Source: Leucoraja erinacea
Taxonomy: Eukaryota
DNA length: 64,000 bases
Reading direction: 5' to 3'
Assembly: GCF_028641065.1 (NCBI RefSeq)
Contig: NW_026575913.1
Coordinates: 124,001-188,000, forward strand
Within the stretch, counting starts at the first letter, position 1. The number at the start of each line of letters is the position of its first letter. The notes under the pieces are model-generated. The model did not search any database, was not told where the DNA came from, and was given only the letters and a program-made list of their open reading frames with translations. Of this stretch, positions 7,079 to 57,395 are shown piece after piece. The translations under genes were made by a program, and so were the position numbers.

Positions 7079-10000
7079 ATATAATAACCATTTAACAATT
7101 ACAGCACGGAAACAGGCCATCTCGACCCTTCTAGTCCGTGCCGAAAACAAATTCTCCCCTAGTCCCATACACCTACATTCAGACCATAACCCTCCATACC
7201 TTTCCCGTCCATATAACTATCCAATTTATTTTTAAATAATAAAAACGAAACTGCCTCCACCACCTTCACTGGAAGCTCATTCCACACCGCCACCACTCTC
7301 TGAGTAAAGAAGTTCCCCCTCATGTTACCCCTAAATTTCTGTCCCTTAATTCTCAAGTCATGTCCCCTTCTTTGAATCTTCCCTACTCTCAGTGGGAAAA
7401 GCTTATCCACTTCAACTCTGTCTATACCTCTCATCATTTTAAAGACCTCTATCAAGTTCCCCCTTAACCTTCTGCGCTCCAAAGAATAAAGCCCTAACTT
7501 GTTCAACCTTTGCCTTGTACAATTTTAACATTACATCCCAACTTCTATACTCAATGCTCTGATTTATAAAGGCCAGCACACCAAAAGCTTTCTTTACCAC
7601 CCTATCTACATGAGATTCCACTTTCAGGGAACTGTGCACAGTTATTCCCAGATCCCTCTGTTCACCTGCATTCTTCAATTCCCTACCATTTACCATGTAC
7701 GTCCTATTTTGATTTGTCCTGCCAAGATGTAGCACCTCACACTTATCAGCATTAAACTCCACCTGCCATCTTTCAGCCCACTCTTCCAACTGGCATAAAT
7801 CTCTCTGTAGACTTTGAAAATCTACTTCATTATCCACAACCCCACCTATCTTAGTATCATCTGCATACTTACTAATCCAATTTACCACACCATCATCCAG
7901 ATCATTGATGTACATGACAAACAACAGTGGACCCAACACAGATCCCTGTGACACCCCACCAGTCACTGGCCTCCAACCTGACAAACAACCATCCACCATT
8001 ACTCTCTGGCATCTCCCATTCAGCCACTGTTGAATCCATCTTGCTACTCCTCCATTAATCCCCAACCATTGAACCTTCTTAACCAACCTCCCGTGAGGAA
8101 CCTTGTCAAAGGCCTTACTGAAGTCCATGTATACAACATCCACTGCTTTACCCTCATCAATTTCCTGAGTAACCTTTTAAAAAAATTCAAGAAGATTAGT
8201 CAAACATGATCTTCCAGGCACAAATCCATGTTGACTGTTCCTAATCAGACCCTGTTTATCCAGATGCTTATATATATATTATCTCTAAGTATCCTTTCCA
8301 TTAATTTGACCACCACTGACGTCAAACTAACAGGTCTATAATTGCTAGGTTTACTCTTAGACCCCTTTTTAAACAATGGAACAACATGCGCAGTACGCCA
8401 ATCCTCTGGCACTATTCCCGTTTCTAATGACATTTGAAATATTTCTGTCATAGCCCCTGCTATTTCTATACTAACTTCCCACAATGTCCTAGGGAATATC
8501 CTGTCCGGACCTGGAGACTTATTCACTTTTATATTTCTCAAAAGTGTCAGTACTTCCTCTTCTTTGATCCTCATAGTTTCCCTAGCTACTCTACTTGTTT
8601 CCCTTACCTCACATAATTCAATATCCTTCTCCTTGGTGAATACCAAAGAAAATAAATTGTTCAATATCTCCCCCATCTCTTTTGACTCTGCAGATAGCTG
8701 TCCACTCTGACTCTCTAAGGACCAATTTTATCCCTCGTTATCCTTTTGCTATTAATATAGCTGTAGAAACCCTTTCGATTTAATTTCACCTTACTTGTCA
8801 AAGCAACCTCATATCTTCTTTTCTTATTTCTTATTTCTTTCTTGAGATTCTTTTTTCATTCTTTATACTCCTCAAGCACCACATTTACTTCATGCTGCCT
8901 ATAATTATTGTAGAGCTCCCTCTTTTTCCGAACCAAGTGTCCAATTTCCCTTGAAAACCATGGCTCTTTCCAATTTTTACTATTTCCTTTCAACTGAACA
9001 GGGACATAAAGATTCTGTACTCTTAAAATTTCACCTTGAAATGTATTCCATTTCTCTTCCACATCTTTCCCATAAAACAAACTGTCCCAATTTACTCCTT
9101 TTAAATCCTTTCGCATCTCATCAAAGTTAGCCTTTCTCCAATCAAAAATCTCAACCCTATGTCCAGTTCTGACCCTCTCTATAATTATATTGAAACTAAT
9201 GGTATTGTGATCACTGGTCCCGAACTGTTCCCCAACGCATACCTCTGCCACCTGACCCGTCTCATTTCCTAACAGGAGGTCCAGCACTGCCCCTTCTCTA
9301 GTAGGTACTTCTATGTATTGCTGCAAAAAGCTATCCTGCACACATTTTACAAACTCCAACCCATCCAGCCCATTTACAGAATGTGTTTCCCAGTCTATGT
9401 GTGGAAAATTGAAATCTCCCACAATCACTACCTTGTGCTTACTACAAATATCTGCAATCTCCTTACATATTTGCTCTTCCAATTCTCGCTCCCCATTTGG
9501 CGGTCTATAATACACCCCTATAAGTGTTGCTACCCCTTTCCCATTTCTCAGTTCCACCCAAATAGCCTCCCTAGACGAGCCCTCTAATCTATCCTGCCAA
9601 AGCACTGCTGTAATATCTTCCCTGATAAGTAATGCAACACCTCCACCTCTTGCCCCACCAATTCTATCACACCTGAAGCAACAAAATCCTGGAATATTTA
9701 GTTTCCAATCACAGCCCTCCTGCAACCATGTTTCACTGATCGCCACAACATCATACTTCCAGGTGTCAATCCAGGCTCTAAGTTCATTCACCTTTCTTAC
9801 AATGCTCCTAGCATTAAAATATACACATTTAAGAAACGCACCATCTCTTATTCTCTGTTTATTTTCTTTTTCTGATCTCTCCCCTACATTTTGGGTCAGA
9901 GTGCTACCATTCTCTGCCTCCTGCCTCACACACTGACTGCTAGCTTTCCCAATTCGAGTCCCTCCCCCCAACCATACTAGTTTAAAGTCTCCCCAGTAGC

Positions 10001-20548: not shown

Positions 20549-21348
20549 CAGGTGCACAACCTTTTTTATCCGGTGTTCCAGAAACCGAAAAGCTCCGAAA
20601 ACCGGCCATTTTTTCCAGATGTCGTCTGCGCACCAAAGCTCGCGTTTGGCGCCAAACTTGACCTAAAACGACCCACGGTCAACCCAGGTCTGTACTACTG
20701 TAGCGGCTGCCTCCTCCCTGGAGACCGGGAGACGCTTAAACATCTGTAAATCATTGCTTAAATGTTAGTCAGTTAGTTTGGAGGGCTTTTATGTGAAGGG
20801 GGGTGAAGGGGTAAACTTTAAATAACCGGCAGCGGTGGGCGGCGCTGGTTGTAGCTCCGCTACCCCTGGCTGCGAGGCGCTCCAAATCCAGCGCGGCCCG
20901 CGGCCAGACGCCCCAGCTCCGCGAATGTCGGGTGCAGCGGCAAGCTCCGAAGCAAGAAGCCAGGGGTAGAGTTGCCGGGGTCGGAGCCGACGTTTCCCGC
21001 GGCGGCCGGACGGAGAGCTCCGCGGCTCCAAAACAGATTTTGCCCGCTCCCCGCTGGTATCCCAGCGCTGCGAAGTCCGGCCGCGGGCGGCGCTGGATTT
21101 GGAGCGCCTCGCAGCCAGGGGTAGAGTTGCCGGGGTCGGAGCTACAACCGGCGCCGCCCGCGGCCGGACGGAGGCTCCGCGAGGTTGGGAGTCGCCGACC
21201 AGGACTAAGAATTAAAAGACTCCACCACCACCACATAAAATCCCTCCAAACTAACTAACTAACATTTGCAATGATTCTCCCGGTCAACGCGCTACCTACC
21301 TAATCTACAAGAGGTCCCAAGGCTTTCGGATAAAAGGTTGTGCACCTG
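20549..21348. mobile_element. Tc1/mariner-superfamily (pogo/Tigger-like) MITE, 800 bp
   Basis: TA|CAGGTGCACAACCTTTT...AAAAGGTTGTGCACCTG|TA; TA target duplication; internal inverted repeats. Confidence 0.9.
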
Positions 21349-51861: not shown

Positions 51862-52509
51862 GCCCAGAGATAATAGACCTATCCTGCCAGTGGCATCACC
51901 AGTCACTTGTTTTTAACGTTAGCTGCACAGTCTCTTGAGAGATCACATGACGACTCCTGACGGCAAATTAATTGGGATTAATATTAGACATTTAAACAAA
52001 ATTATCCAGGCCACGTTTTCTACCGTTAATTATGAAATGGCGTAATGGCTGCCAGTAAATTTTGTTATTTGTTAAAATATAGATTATATGACTATGTATA
52101 ATAGACAATAGAAATAATTCTAAGCAAGAACATTCACTACCTGTTCTATTTGCAATCTCAGTTCTAAGCAGCAAATTGATTTTGTATTATCTATTCATAC
52201 CCATGAGCTTAACGAAAAGGCTCTTACGTGCTACTTTTACATTGGCTGTCACCTCCATCCAGGCACCCACCACTCTCTGTAAAACAAATTGCTCGCGAAT
52301 CTCCTTTAAACTCCCTCTCACCTATTCCACGTGTCCTCCAATCCCCTCCACGCTGGACAACGTTTATTTGTTAATAAATCATCAATGGCTTTCATAACGT
52401 TGCGATATCAGGTAACCTTTCAACCATCGGCTTTCCAGAGGTTGCAAACCGTCTGTCCTGCTCTCGCTTGTAATGGTGCAGTCCAATCCAGGGATTAGTT
52501 TGTTAAATC

Positions 52510-52600
52510 CAAAGATCCTAGAGGAGCAAGATAGACCACTCCTCGAAAAACGCGTAGTATGACGTGTGTGATCGTCGACGCCATTTTTCGAGGCATTTAT
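52510..52600 (+). mobile_element. Terminus of a CAAAG-ended TIR DNA transposon (P-element-like)
   Basis: CAAAGATCCTAGAGGAGCAAGATAGACCACTCCTC matches the inverted end at 56645-56679 (1 mismatch in 35). Confidence 0.65.
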
Positions 52601-53092
52601 TGAGCTTCCCCCACACTGTCATCGCGCCCTTATCTAAATTTCATCTCACTGCTCTGCTATCAAGTATTCTAATCGTAAATCTAAATGACCCGACCTGTCA
52701 ATCTTTAGGTTCCCCAATAAAAAAGAAAGGTGAGAAAATATTTTTATTATTTTCAGTCGCTATTCTGTCGTGAAAATGTTATTTTCTGTTCTCCCATCAA
52801 CGGCCATTGGGAAACTGGGTTTGTCGGTACATTAGAAAGTTATTAGACTTATTTTTAATAGTTCTTTACTTACCATAATAATAAAGACAATTTTAACACT
52901 TCTGTACGTTTTTGGTCTTGTTCTTGTAAGGGATTGGTCTCCACAATATGTCCCGCGGACACATTAGACCCAGTGACCACGGGATTTTTCGAGCTCAGAT
53001 TCGAGAATGGGCAGCTGTTACCCATTATATTCCTCGAATTGTCAAGACATCACAAGCAAAGATCACAAGCCCGCCGTGAAGAAGGGTGCAAT

Positions 53093-53125
53093 CAAATATT
53101 ATATAACTCTGCTCTATCATCTTTG
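53093..53125. mobile_element. 33-bp TIR-only remnant with perfect 8-bp TSD GGTGCAAT
   Basis: GGTGCAAT-CAAATATTATATAACTCTGCTCTATCATCTTTG-GGTGCAAT. Confidence 0.8.
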
Positions 53126-53168
53126 GGTGCAATGGTGGGTCGGGGGGTTCGGTGGCGGCGGCCGCAAT

Positions 53169-53204
53169 CAAAGATACTAGTGGAGCTCTGCTCTATAATC
53201 TTTG
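53169..53204. mobile_element. 36-bp TIR-only remnant with decayed 8-bp TSD
   Basis: GCCGCAAT-CAAAGATACTAGTGGAGCTCTGCTCTATAATCTTTG-GTCGGAAT (TSD 6/8). Confidence 0.7.
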
Positions 53205-53244
53205 GTCGGAATGGGACGGCTGCGCGTTATAATGTGCTATCGTT

Positions 53245-53530
53245 CCACTCTCCCTCCCCCCCTTCTCCCTCCCCCCCTTCTCCCTGTCCCCCCCTTTCCC
53301 CTTCTCCCTCCCCCTTCTCCCTCTCCCCCTTCTCCCTCTCCCCCCTTCTCCCTCCCCCCTTCTCCCTCTCCCCCCCTTCTCCCTCTCTCTCTCTCGATCT
53401 CTCTCTCCCCTCCTCTCGATCTCTCGCTCCCCTCTCTTCTCTCTCTCTCTCTCTCTCTCTCCCCCTCTCTTCGCGATCTCCCTCCCTTCCCTCTCTCCCT
53501 CCCTTCCATCTCTCCCTCCCTTACCTCTTC
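53245..53530 (+). repeat. CT-rich polypyrimidine low-complexity tract
   Basis: Almost exclusively C/T. Confidence 0.95.
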
Positions 53531-54046
53531 GTGAGAGTTGGCAGCTCTGCTATGCCTTGGGTCCAAAAGAGGATAGAAAGAAAATACTTAATGGTCTTTG
53601 TAAGAAGATTTTAATAAGCTCTTCTACATTTAAGGTAAATTGACATATTAGAGGCAAAACGCATTTTCAATATACAGGTCTCTCCACACAACTGAAAACA
53701 ATTGCATTTAAGTGATATGTCATCCATTGTTCAGGCAAGTAGCACTAGGTTACAATAAACTTCCTACATATTCCAGGAATGCATCTCATAAAAATGGGAG
53801 AGGCTTAAATGCATTGTGAAATCATAAATCCATGTTGACTTGGACTAATCATTTTACTGCTATCCAAATGCCCCATTATTACATCTTTAATAATTGACTC
53901 CAGCATCTTTCACACCACCAAAGTCAGGCTAACTGGTCTGTAATTCCCCGTTTTCTCTCTCGCTCCTTTCTTGAAAAGTGGGATAGCATTAGCTATCCTC
54001 CAATCCACAGGAACTGATCGTAAATCTATTGATCGTTGGAAAATAA

Positions 54047-55970
54047 TAGAAACATAGAAACATAGAAATTAGGTGCAGGAGTAGGCCATTCGGCCCTTCG
54101 AGCCTGCACCGCCATTCAATATGATCATGGCTGATTATCCGACTCAGTATCCCGTACCTGCCTTCTCTCCATACCCTCTGATCCCCTTAGCCACAAGGGC
54201 CACATCTAACTCCCTCTTAAATATAGCCAATGAACTGGCCTCGACTACCCTCTGCGGCAGAGAGTTCCAGAGATTCACCACTCTCTGTGTGAAAAAGGTT
54301 CTTCTCATCTCGGTTTTAAAGGATTTCCCCCTTATCCTTAAGCTGTGACCCCTTGTCCTGGACTTCCCCAACATCGGGAGCAATCTTCCTGCATCTAGCC
54401 TGTCCAACCCCTTAAGAATTTTGTAAGTTTCTATAAGATCCCCTCGCAATCTCCTAAATTCTAGAGAGTATAAACCAAGTCTATCCAGTCTTTCTTCATA
54501 AGACAGTCCTGACATCCCAGGAATCAGTCTGGTGAACCTTCTCTGCACTCCCTCTATGGCAATAATGTCCTTCCTCAGATTTGGAGACCAAAACTGTACC
54601 CAATACTCCAGGTGTGGTCTCACCAAGACCCTGTACAACTGCAGTAGAACCTCCCTGCTCCTATACTCAAATCCTTTCGCTATGAAAGCTAACATACCAT
54701 TCGCTTTCTTCACTGCCTGCTGCACCTGCATGCCTACTTTCAATGACTGGTGTACCATGACACCCAGGTCTCGCTGCATCTCCCCTTTTCCTAGTCGGCC
54801 GCCATTTAGATAATAGTCTGCTTTCCTGTTTTTGCCACCAAAATGGATAACCTCACATTTGTCCACATTATACTGCATCTGCCAAACATTTGCCCACTCA
54901 CCCAGCCTATCCAAGTCACCTTGCAGTCTCCTAGCATCCTCCTCACAGCTAACATCCTCCTCACAGCTGGGGTGTGTGTGTGTGTGGGGGGGGGTGGGAG
55001 GGAGGGGGTAACTTTTAAATCTCTCCCTGCACGGTTGGGGCTGCAATGTGGAGCGGCCTCCAACAGGAGAAGACCGGGGACTCTGGTGCCGACTCACCTC
55101 GTCGCGGAGCTGGCTGAGTCCGGAGCGGGTGGAGCGGTGGTGGAGCGCTGCTGCTGCTACTGCTGCTGCGGCCCGACCTCCGGAGATTCGGAGGCTGCAA
55201 CTGCGGGTCTGGCGGACGGCGACACCGGGAGCCCGCGGGTCCCTGGAGGGAGACCGCTTTTCAGGGCTCCTGCAACGGCGACTTCTCCCGCCCGAGTTGC
55301 GGGGTTGAAGAGCTCCTGGAGCGGGGCCTGACATCACCGCCCCGCACGGCTTGGAATGGCCGCGGGACTCTGCGAGCGCACGCCGGGGGCTCTAACACCA
55401 AGACCCGGTGTGCGACCTTGCATCACCCGGCGTGGCTTTAATGGCCGCGGGATAATCGCCATCGCCAGCCGGGGGCTTTGACTTTGACTCTGACATGGGG
55501 GGGGGAGAGAGTGCAGTGGAGAGATACGTTTTTTTGGCCTTCCATCACAGCGATGTGATGGATGTTTATGTAAAATGTAAATTATGTTGTGTCTTGGGTC
55601 TATTTGTTTGTAATGTATGGCTGCAGAAACGGCATTTCGTTTGGACCTCAAGGGGTCCAAATGACAATTAAATTGAATTAAATTAAATTAAATTAAATTA
55701 AACACTGCCCCCCAGCTTAGTGTCATCCGCAAACGTGGAGATATTGCCTTCAATTCCCTCATCCAGATCATTAATATATATTGTAAATAGCTGGGGTCCC
55801 AGCACTGAGCCTTGCGGTACCCCACTAGTCACTGCCTGCCTAATGAAGAACTCAACCATATTATGGTCACTCTTGCCCAAGGGGGCACGTACAATAAGAT
55901 TGCTAACTAACCCTTCCTCATTACTCAATACCCAGTCTAAAATAGCCTGCTCTCTCGTTGGTTCCTCTAC
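54047..55970 (-). mobile_element. CR1-B LINE fragment interrupted at 54969-55700, with an internal deletion at ~55838; runs into an N gap
   Basis: RT ORF, (CATAGAAA)n tail; sequence resumes (AACACTGCCCCCCAGC) after the insert. Confidence 0.9.
54969..55700 (+). mobile_element. GC-rich non-autonomous retroposon with a 3' stem-loop and (TAAAT)n tail
   Basis: Cleanly interrupts CR1-B; 3' end ATTTCGTTTGGACCTCAAGGGGTCCAAATGACAAT(TAAAT)n; 16-bp local duplication CATCCTCCTCACAGCT at the 5' junction. Confidence 0.75.
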
Positions 55971-56251
55971 NNNNNNNNNNNNNNNNNNNNNNNNNNNNNN
56001 NNNNNNNNNNNNNNNNNNNNNNNNNNNNNNNNNNNNNNNNNNNNNNNNNNNNNNNNNNNNNNNNNNNNNNNNNNNNNNNNNNNNNNNNNNNNNNNNNNCA
56101 TATGNNNNNNNNNNNNNNNNNNNNNNNNNNNNNNNNNNNNNNNNNNNNNNNNNNNNNNNNNNNNNNNNNNNNNNNNNNNNNNNNNNNNNNNNNNNNNNNN
56201 NNNNNNNNNNNNNNNNNNNNNNNNNNNNNNNNNNNNNNNNNNNNNNNNNNN
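55971..56251. other. Assembly gap (N runs with a 6-bp CATATG island)
   Basis: Ns in the sequence. Confidence 1.
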
Positions 56252-56511
56252 CCTTTATGGTTTATGTATATCATCTTACAAGACAAATAAATTAATAGTG
56301 ATTATTTAAATCAAAGTTGCTTCTGATCCATGAGAATAAACTTAATTATCTCTAACTTGCCTCTCACACACAGACACACATTCATATAAATATATAAAAT
56401 ATGTATACGTTAAATTTAATTTTGTGCAGTGTGTGTTAAAGCAATACAATGCAAGGGAAACTACGCAAAGGAGGGGGCTGTTCCCGCTACAAGAGGATCT
56501 TTGCTTTGGAT

Positions 56512-56542
56512 CAAAGATTATAGCGGAGCTCTATAATCTTTG
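56512..56542. mobile_element. 31-bp TIR-only remnant with perfect 12-bp TIR and perfect 8-bp TSD CTTTGGAT
   Basis: CTTTGGAT-CAAAGATTATAG-CGGAGCT-CTATAATCTTTG-CTTTGGAT. Confidence 0.85.
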
Positions 56543-56550
56543 CTTTGGAT

Positions 56551-56679
56551 CACAGCGGGTGGCATACCGGAAGTCGCGTGTCGCATTGAAAAATGGCGGC
56601 CGTGACGTTCCGTCACGTACTACATGCCAGTCCATTGGATTTCGGAGGAGTGGTCTATCTTGGTCCTCTAGGATCTTTG
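56551..56679 (-). mobile_element. Terminus of a CAAAG-ended TIR DNA transposon abutting the L2
   Basis: GAGGAGTGGTCTATCTTGGTCCTCTAGGATCTTTG is the inverted match of 52510-52544. Confidence 0.65.
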
Positions 56680-57395
56680 GCCAGACCCTGTGTGAAGCGC
56701 AGCGGCGTGGTCTCCCTGAACCTCCGCCCGCTGGCATGGGAGCCGCTACCGGCCCTCAACTCACCTGCAGTCCCTGCAAAAGTGGCCCTGATCAATGCGA
56801 GATCAGTGCTGAATAAAACCTTCGTTCTCAATGACTTCTTCACCGCACGTGGATTGGCCTCCCTACTTATCACTGAAACCTGGCTTAATCCTGGCGAGCT
56901 TGCTCCACTCGTGGAACTCTGCCCTGATACCTGTAACTTTTTCAGCTCGCCCAGGGCTCTCAGGTCGAGGTGGGAGCCTAGCCACTGTGTTTAAGAAGAA
57001 TTTCAACTGCCGCCTTCTGAACACTGATCAGGTTTCCAGTTTTGAACATCAACTAATCATAGTTGGTCTAATCTGTCCGCTTTTAATTGTTCTTGTGTAT
57101 CGCCCACCAAAGATGCATTAGGACTTTATCTCACAATTTGGTGATCTTATTGCTAGCTTGTTGCCCAAATTTGACCAGGTCCTGATTCTTGGTGACTTTA
57201 ACATTCTCGTTTGTTTTCCTACGAAGCCTCTTGTGAGTGAATTTATGAACCTGGTTGAGTCCTTCAATCTGTCTCTACTCACCACTGGACCCATGCACAA
57301 GCTTGGCCACACACTAGACCTACTGCTTTCGTCTGGTCTCCTAACTTGTGACACAGATATTATTGATGCCTGCCTGTCTGATCATAATGCTATTA

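What the first reader, a model, noticed from the sequence alone, without database searches (positions are those of the whole stretch)
53049..56550. Cluster of TIR-only 'empty' elements with 8-bp TSDs: probable excision footprints of a P-element-like transposon
Seen: four sites where an 8-bp direct repeat brackets only transposon-end sequence. They are 56512-56542 (31 bp, TSD CTTTGGAT), 53093-53125 (33 bp, TSD GGTGCAAT), 53169-53204 (36 bp, TSD 6/8 match) and 53057-53061 (only CAAAG, TSD ATCACAAG). In the three longer sites each half keeps about 14-19 nt of a CAAAGAT(T/C).TAG.G.AG end, which also starts longer elements at 52510 and 56679. Established: Drosophila P transposase makes 8-bp TSDs and a 17-nt staggered cut, so end-joining repair leaves roughly 15-18 nt of each TIR at the donor site; vertebrate relatives include THAP9 and zebrafish P-like elements. 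Inference: these are repeated germline insertion/excision scars of a P-superfamily element, recording a long-stagger cleavage mechanism in a cartilaginous fish.
Basis: partly seen in the sequence, partly recalled or inferred. Interest (0 to 1): 0.8.

Follow-up and report, generated by a model that had tools for sequence, protein, structure and literature searches.

The report
P-transposon excision scars, motif-set cut
These tiny palindromes are likely scars left when a P-type jumping gene cut itself out; the ones here were copied along inside a larger element of the same family, the genome holds nearly 4,000 such marks, and the sampled ones suggest the enzyme cuts 18, 19 or 20 bases into its own ends at a point likely set by a short inner repeat, not at the fruit fly's fixed 17.

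Summary
All four units are real, but they are not four local events. They lie inside one internally deleted P element (52510-56679). Other copies carry them at the same places, including TSD-bounded copies that encode a P transposase; three sit in the region of intron 1. The class is genome-wide: 3,887 end-to-end units of 22-52 bp (control 9), against 124 of 53-82 bp. Of 59 flank-distinct sites, 37 have an exact 8-bp duplication and 52 differ in sequence; some have empty paralogous sites. Element ends come in three lengths: 18, 19 or 20 nt up to a C followed by a nearly invariant AAGAT. Scar halves stop at that C (102 of 116), even in 18+20 blunt joins. I infer a nick placed from inside, before a repeat of tip bases 3-7, matching the fold-back helix of the fly transpososome. 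No cut was measured. This scan noted the same thing before, in this genome and others; those notes are not independent support.

The parts
52510..56679 (+). Internally deleted, non-coding copy of a P-superfamily element; holds all four units, unrelated repeat pieces and an N stretch; its outer flanks do not form a target duplication (4 of 8)
52510..52549 (+). Left terminal inverted repeat, 18-nt class
52528..52532 (+). Inner AAGAT, a direct repeat of tip bases 3-7; the inferred nick lies just 5' of it
   Evidence: sequence; conservation; position of the nick inferred
52641..52730 (+). Decayed first THAP exon of the transposase (in-frame stop), ending at a GT donor at 52730
   Evidence: tblastn; PF05485 positions 1-28 in the C956 copy, E 0.0036, below cut-off; splice joint in a sister copy
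52730..53742 (+). Sequence homologous to transposase intron 1, which carries the three 5' units
53049..53069 (.). 5-bp unit with duplicated ATCACAAG; likely a one-sided scar joined at AT; inherited passenger; weakest case
53085..53133 (.). 33-bp scar with duplicated GGTGCAAT; reads as a decayed 15-nt half plus a 20-nt half with 2-nt overlap; inherited passenger
   Evidence: no empty site found
53161..53212 (.). 36-bp scar, 18-nt half plus 20-nt half with 2-nt GC overlap; flanks 6 of 8; inherited passenger
   Evidence: parent type with 18/20 ends L168; same junction at an unrelated site L257
53537..53544 (+). Single 8-mer: the empty site of a 36-bp scar that the C1676 copy carries between two copies of this 8-mer
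56504..56550 (.). 31-bp scar with duplicated CTTTGGAT; 18-nt half (one later change) plus 15-nt half with GC overlap; inherited passenger near the right end
56640..56679 (-). Right terminal inverted repeat, 18-nt class; inner repeat at 56657-56661

Best explanation
The units are likely donor-site scars of a P-superfamily cut-and-paste transposon, and the four in this window are passengers copied inside one element of that same family. Shown: the family's ends, 8-bp target duplications, a spliced THAP-RNaseH-GTP-domain transposase gene, thousands of end-to-end units, and halves that stop at the same C in three end-length classes. Inferred mechanism: the transposase cuts the transferred strand at the tip and nicks the other strand just 5' of an inner AAGAT. 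The donor keeps a 3' overhang of 18, 19 or 20 nt on each side. End joining seals these overhangs mostly at the terminal GC (a+b-2: 34, 36, 37, 38 bp), less often blunt (36, 38, 39, 40 bp), at inner palindromes (22, 28, 31-33 bp) or with templated inserts. Because one element can leave an 18-nt and a 20-nt half, the nick is likely placed from inside. The freed 5' AAGAT would pair with the complement of tip bases 3-7, as in the fold-back helix of the fly strand-transfer complex, and the loop between would absorb the length difference. Scars that landed in intron 1 or near the right end of a master copy were tolerated and amplified with it.
For: Transposase: PF21787, PF21788, PF21789 and PF12017 over cut-off; only PDB hit 6P5A, E 1.3e-42; THAP pieces; 38 GTP-domain matches in the genome. 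Copies C956:134044-144562 and C1676:46274-55927 have these ends and exact 8-bp duplications. Two splice joints (GT-AG, GC-AG) in 3 of 3 runs guessed to be RNA, from three studies, and absent from the one DNA run. Units: 3,887 of 22-52 bp against 124 of 53-82 bp. 37 of 59 flank clusters exact 8-bp, 50 of 59 at least 7 of 8, 52 distinct sequences. Cap: 102 of 116 halves that reach the C keep no further parental base. A prediction made from 19-nt ends seen held: 28 of 31 such halves stop at 19. Blunt joins 18+18 x5, 20+20 x7, 18+20 x2, 19+20 x1. Mixed-end parents with duplications: L168 (18/20), L222, L224, L241 (19/20). Inner AAGAT 80-82 of 82 per column when anchored on another motif; the three bases after it vary. 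Empty paralogs: C1676 scar against window 53537-53544 and 12 other hits; L114; L123. Fly precedent: PMC7776569 sections 7 and 8; PMC2895639 passages.
Against: No cut was measured. No site was found in both the occupied and the scarred state: 0 shared flanks among 81 long ends and 267 scar flanks. The nick could be 1 nt further in: three 18+A+18 joins exist, and 9 of 116 halves keep one more A, 3 keep two and 2 keep four or five. The tip bases were fixed by my search patterns, so tip-to-inner covariation is untested; AAGAT may be conserved as a protein-binding site instead. The fly pairing register could not be read (papers not held). No empty site for the 33-bp unit or among the first 100 of 118 copies of the 5-bp unit. 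The three empty copies of the 31-bp site do not group together in a poorly resolved tree, and one pairs with a filled copy, so they may be later losses. 9 of 59 sampled clusters have 5 or fewer of 8 flank bases alike.
Confidence: 0.8

Rival explanations
1. They are P excision scars, but the enzyme leaves one fixed, longer overhang (20 nt or more) on every end, and repair trims each back to the nearest GC.
For: GC overlap is the commonest junction. A few halves keep 1-2 more parental bases (12 of 116). End joining does clip short 3' flaps (general knowledge).
Against: Blunt joins use no overlap yet still stop at the C in every class (15 clusters). In the first 100 of 141 rows no 18-class pair keeps AA on both sides and only 3 rows keep AA at all (counted by eye).
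Confidence: 0.1
2. Transposase-independent deletion inside the stem formed by the two inverted repeats (slippage or aborted gap repair) leaves the outer parts of both ends.
For: Many junctions sit at short palindromes in the ends (22- and 28-bp units). A few units keep the whole AAGAT or more: 1 of the first 100 rows, 4 of the first 100, 1 of 31 (counted by eye). Nearly precise excision of Tn10 is a recalled precedent, not checked.
Against: The 40-nt stem has further 2-nt palindromes inside the C that are almost never used. Blunt joins have no overlap. The cap moves with end class. Units of 53-82 bp are rare (124) and many listed ones are built of repeated end or flank pieces (by eye).
Confidence: 0.05
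3. The short units are a tiny MITE that moves as it is.
For: Identical 22-, 31-, 32-, 34- and 36-bp units recur: 23 of the first 50 sites match the window's two longer types (by eye); the 22-bp length falls in 6 flank clusters.
Against: The recurring 31-, 32- and 36-bp units share their flanks and sit in larger elements. 52 distinct sequences in 59 clusters. The units lack the inner half of the end.
Confidence: 0.03
4. Different transposase subfamilies each cut at their own fixed depth (18 or 20), so no motif-anchored nick is needed.
For: The genome holds transposase genes about 78-82% identical in DNA to the C956 one, and most paired ends seen are of one class.
Against: Single scars with exact duplications join an 18- and a 20-nt half (L250, L251) or a 19- and a 20-nt half (L295, 7 of 8), and mixed-end parents exist.
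Confidence: 0.02

Closest known systems
Drosophila melanogaster P element, its transposase (PDB 6P5A/6PE2) and its donor-site junctions (PMC7776569 sections 7 and 8 read; PMC2895639 passages with junction tables read)
   Same: Domain order THAP, HTH, split RNase H with GTP-binding insertion; the three catalytic acids align; 8-bp target duplication; donor junctions that keep end sequence, joined blunt, at 1-3 nt overlaps or with templated inserts.
   Different: About 40-nt ends of other sequence. Retained length 18, 19 or 20 nt by end class (inferred) against 17. The junctions are fixed in the genome by the thousand and not recovered from crosses. The family carries and amplifies its own scars.
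Zebrafish Pdre2 / zfTHAP9 (bioRxiv 10.1101/2024.03.22.586318, passages read)
   Same: Vertebrate P-like element with 8-bp target duplication and an active transposase.
   Different: 13-bp ends of unrelated sequence plus subterminal repeats. The passages seen report flanking deletions and do not give an overhang length. Named protein hits here are mollusc P transposases at 35-40% identity (3 named species-level hits among 120 listed); no direct comparison with THAP9 was run.
hAT elements (8-bp duplication; recalled)
   Same: 8-bp duplication and ends starting CA.
   Different: The enclosed transposase has only P-family domains. hAT excision is recalled to leave no end sequence at the donor site.

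Membership tests
P superfamily | RNase H-like transposase with GTP-binding insertion, between the same terminal repeats | tested here: met
   PF21787, PF21788, PF21789 over cut-off in C956, whose ends and duplication are exact
P superfamily | Catalytic D, D, E matching fly D230, D303, E531 | tested here: met
   D206, D296, E524 of the 773-aa frame, counted by hand from the alignment and positions
P superfamily | GTP-contact residues listed in PMC7776569 section 8 | tested here: met
   7 of 8 identical, K400 aligns to R (read by hand)
P superfamily | N-terminal THAP domain and HTH domain | tested here: met
   PF05485 positions 49-87 E 2e-6 (over cut-off) and 1-28 E 0.0036 (under) on two exons; exons joined; PF12017
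P superfamily | 8-bp target-site duplication | tested here: met
   37 of 59 exact at 8 bp; 2 at 7; 0 at 5, 6, 9, 10; full elements
P superfamily | Long staggered cut leaving end sequence at the donor | tested here: inconclusive
   Strongly implied by the length cap; not measured
Drosophila-type P cleavage | Stagger of exactly 17 nt | tested here: not met
   Blunt 18+18, 18+20, 19+20 and 20+20 joins
P superfamily | GTP dependence and fold-back A-form helix | not testable with these tools
   Only sequence compatibility: inner AAGAT repeats tip bases 3-7
P superfamily | Internal THAP binding sites | not tested
   No site mapping done
hAT superfamily | hAT transposase domains | tested here: not met
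   Only P-family Pfam domains in 5 of 5 frames scanned
Domesticated THAP9 gene | Single copy without terminal repeats or duplication (recalled) | tested here: not met
   38 GTP-domain matches; ends and duplications intact
MITE | Sequence-uniform unit at unrelated sites | tested here: not met
   52 distinct sequences in 59 clusters; uniform units share flanks

The most novel reading that the evidence does not exclude
This P transposase does not count bases from the tip: it nicks just before an inner copy of the tip sequence, so one enzyme leaves 18-, 19- or 20-nt overhangs, even on the two ends of one element. The fold-back helix of the fly structure would then be the general ruler of P cleavage. 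The genome also keeps over a thousand independent germline end-joining products of a defined long-overhang break, made by a family whose transposase is still spliced.
Probability: 0.6. Interest if true: 0.75.

Novelty: new variant of a known kind. Interest (0 to 1): 0.6.

Why it matters
[quoted passage not shown] Natural ends of three lengths with matching scar lengths give a direct, testable rule for what sets the nick. The scars are also a large natural catalogue of germline end-joining outcomes in a non-model animal. A spliced transposase gene with near-identical copies is a candidate for excision assays. For genome scans, the caution is that clusters of such scars can be inherited cargo, so counts must be corrected by flank.

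Tried and rejected
Independent local events: rejected. 17-nt stagger: rejected by blunt joins. Empty site of the 33-bp unit: none. Empty site of the 5-bp unit: none among the first 100 of 118 rows. Empty copies of the 31-bp site: 3 found, not usable as ancestral state. Occupied-versus-scar pair at one site: none in the loci held. Laying four public DNA runs on a two-scar locus: no contig spanned the site, uninformative. One search listed no holder on record as RNA; the runs used are only guessed to be RNA. One search gave 18 of 102 sites with a candidate empty paralog. Several are self or tandem hits or a misalignment (L087, L153, L205, L218). I printed three more: L114 and L123 are clean, L237 differs at the 8-mer. 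Short one-sided scars: 27 rows against 4-11 for eight control 5-mers, with both strands and passengers counted, so only suggestive; the second 5-bp case (L280) may be chance. Primary fly papers PMC6948148 and PMC316450 were not held; nothing was seen of them. Literature searches listed no paper on genome-wide natural P scars or on a stagger other than 17; I saw listings only, subscription papers, Repbase and Dfam were not searchable, and no supplements were read.

Full report
1. The observation. The ends at 52510 and 56679 are the two arms of one inverted repeat of about 40 nt, so all four units lie inside one 4.2-kb element. The window is G000:C732:124001-188000 in a 2.19-Gb genome; the organism was not identified here.

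2. The element is a P element. A search for the GTP-binding insertion domain gave 38 matches. I fetched 20 of them with flanks and 20 neighbouring stretches. Two carry the window's ends with exact 8-bp duplications: C956:134044-144562 and C1676:46274-55927. The 773-aa frame of C956 matches PF21787, PF21788, PF21789 and PF12017 over their cut-offs. Its only PDB hit is the fly transposase 6P5A (E 1.3e-42), where the three catalytic acids and 7 of 8 listed GTP contacts align (read by hand). THAP is split over two upstream exons. In 3 of 3 runs guessed to be RNA, from three studies, contigs skip 1,039 and 1,052 bases with GT-AG and GC-AG ends; the DNA run shows neither joint. The window keeps a decayed exon 1 and intron-1 sequence and shows no match to exons 2 and 3.

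3. The window's units are passengers. The 33- and 36-bp units stand at the same places in the coding copies, inside intron 1, and the 31-bp unit near their right end. The 5' region with the 5-bp unit occurs 118 times, and 20 of 20 fetched copies show the two longer 5' units, some with changes or small deletions. By eye, 23 of the first 50 sites are the window's 31- or 36-bp type. So the cluster records a few old events in a master copy, not repeated events at this locus.

4. The class is genome-wide and behaves like repair products. There are 3,887 end-to-end units of 22-52 bp (control 9) and 124 of 53-82 bp (control 4); long element ends number 2,957. From the 100 sites listed I fetched 70 (71 units). 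They fall into 59 flank clusters. Taking the best-matched member of each, 37 have an exact 8-bp duplication, 50 at least 7 of 8, and 52 differ in sequence. Of the 100 listed lengths, 97 are 22-42 bp. Independent events are fewer than 3,887; more than a thousand is a rough estimate, not a count. Empty paralogous sites exist: the C1676 copy has a private 36-bp unit between two 8-mers where the window (53537-53544) and 12 other hits have one, and L114 and L123 are clean cases too.

5. Where the halves stop. Anchored on an inner motif, 82 of 84 distinct long ends fall into three classes, with 18 (23), 19 (6) or 20 (53) bases up to a C that is followed by AAGAT; those five columns are 80-82 of 82 conserved and the next three vary. 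In 115 flank clusters with good duplications, 116 halves reach that C; 102 keep no further parental base, 9 keep one, 3 two, 2 four or five. This pool was enriched for non-T junctions, which favours longer retention. Blunt joins without overlap are 18+18 (5), 20+20 (7), 18+20 (2) and 19+20 (1). After seeing 19/20 parents I predicted 37-bp units with 19-nt halves: one search found 31 units, 12 of that form, and 28 stop at base 19; some share flanks. Parents with mixed ends and duplications exist (L168, L222, L224, L241). The window's units decode as 18+20-2 (36 bp), 18+15-2 (31 bp), 15+20-2 (33 bp, decayed) and, less surely, 7+0 with an AT overlap (5 bp).

6. Mechanism. In the fly, the enzyme cuts at the tip on one strand and 17 nt inside on the other, and in the strand-transfer complex the transferred strand loops out and folds back to pair with the 5' part of the other strand (PMC7776569, sections 7 and 8 read whole). 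Fly junctions keep up to 17 nt per side and join blunt, at short overlaps or with templated inserts (PMC2895639, passages). Here the same logic gives 3' overhangs of 18-20 nt. A nick before the inner AAGAT frees a 5' end identical to tip bases 3-7, so it could form the fold-back helix, with the loop taking up the length difference. This step is inference. The primary structure paper was not held, the tip was fixed by my patterns, and AAGAT could equally be a binding site; in both cases the nick is set from inside.

7. Against. No cut was measured. No site was seen both occupied and scarred, and the read test failed to cover the locus. Three 18+A+18 joins leave a one-base doubt. No empty site was found for the 33- or 5-bp units, and the three empty 31-bp sites may be later losses.

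8. Known and new. It is a member of the P superfamily by every sequence feature tested, and it works like the fly element except for the stagger length. Named protein relatives are mollusc P transposases at 35-40%. Eight literature searches (listings only) showed no report of natural genome-wide P scars or of a variable stagger; the library is incomplete and supplements were not read. The zebrafish preprint (passages) gives no overhang length in what I saw. This scan's earlier notes reach the same reading in this genome and others. I saw them after writing my reading (note); they are unreviewed and add no evidence.

9. Verdict. Real feature; first reading right on family and scar model, wrong on local independence and on the 17-nt length. 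New variant of a known kind. Interest 0.6; 0.75 if the motif-set nick is confirmed.

Noticed in passing
window 52502-52509 and 56680-56687: The window's element has no target duplication (4 of 8) and the two flanks look like different repeats; an N stretch lies inside (55971-56251). It may be a rearranged or mis-joined pair of copies.
   Followed up: partly
window 56490-56503: A further decayed end-like piece abuts the 31-bp unit's left 8-mer; sister copies have a longer 21-nt form that looks like an older scar.
   Followed up: partly
window 20678-20685: Single 8-mer in another repeat: the empty site of the 33-bp scar in L114.
   Followed up: yes
L014 1117-1708; L224 1129-1533; L241 1501-1900: MITE families of about 400-600 bp share these ends; the 590-bp family carries its own 32-bp passenger scar.
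   Followed up: partly
L212 and other rows: Scars inside scars and ends inserted into ends: the family seems to insert into or beside its own copies.
   Followed up: no
L050 6044-7095 (minus strand): Intron 2 of the transposase has GC-AG ends; alternative joints inside intron 1 also appear.
   Followed up: no
L046 about 7330-7420: The THAP exon 2 of the C956 copy is frameshifted; five other copies aligned did not show that shift.
   Followed up: partly
C956, C1087, C1188, C1305, C1296, C154: The longest open transposase frames (772-773 aa, about 99% identical in the four compared with C956) lie on small contigs and share one inserted repeat; they may be recent copies or duplicated assembly.
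   Followed up: no
target sites: Duplicated 8-mers have a palindromic bias: G or C then T at the start, A then C or G at the end.
   Followed up: partly
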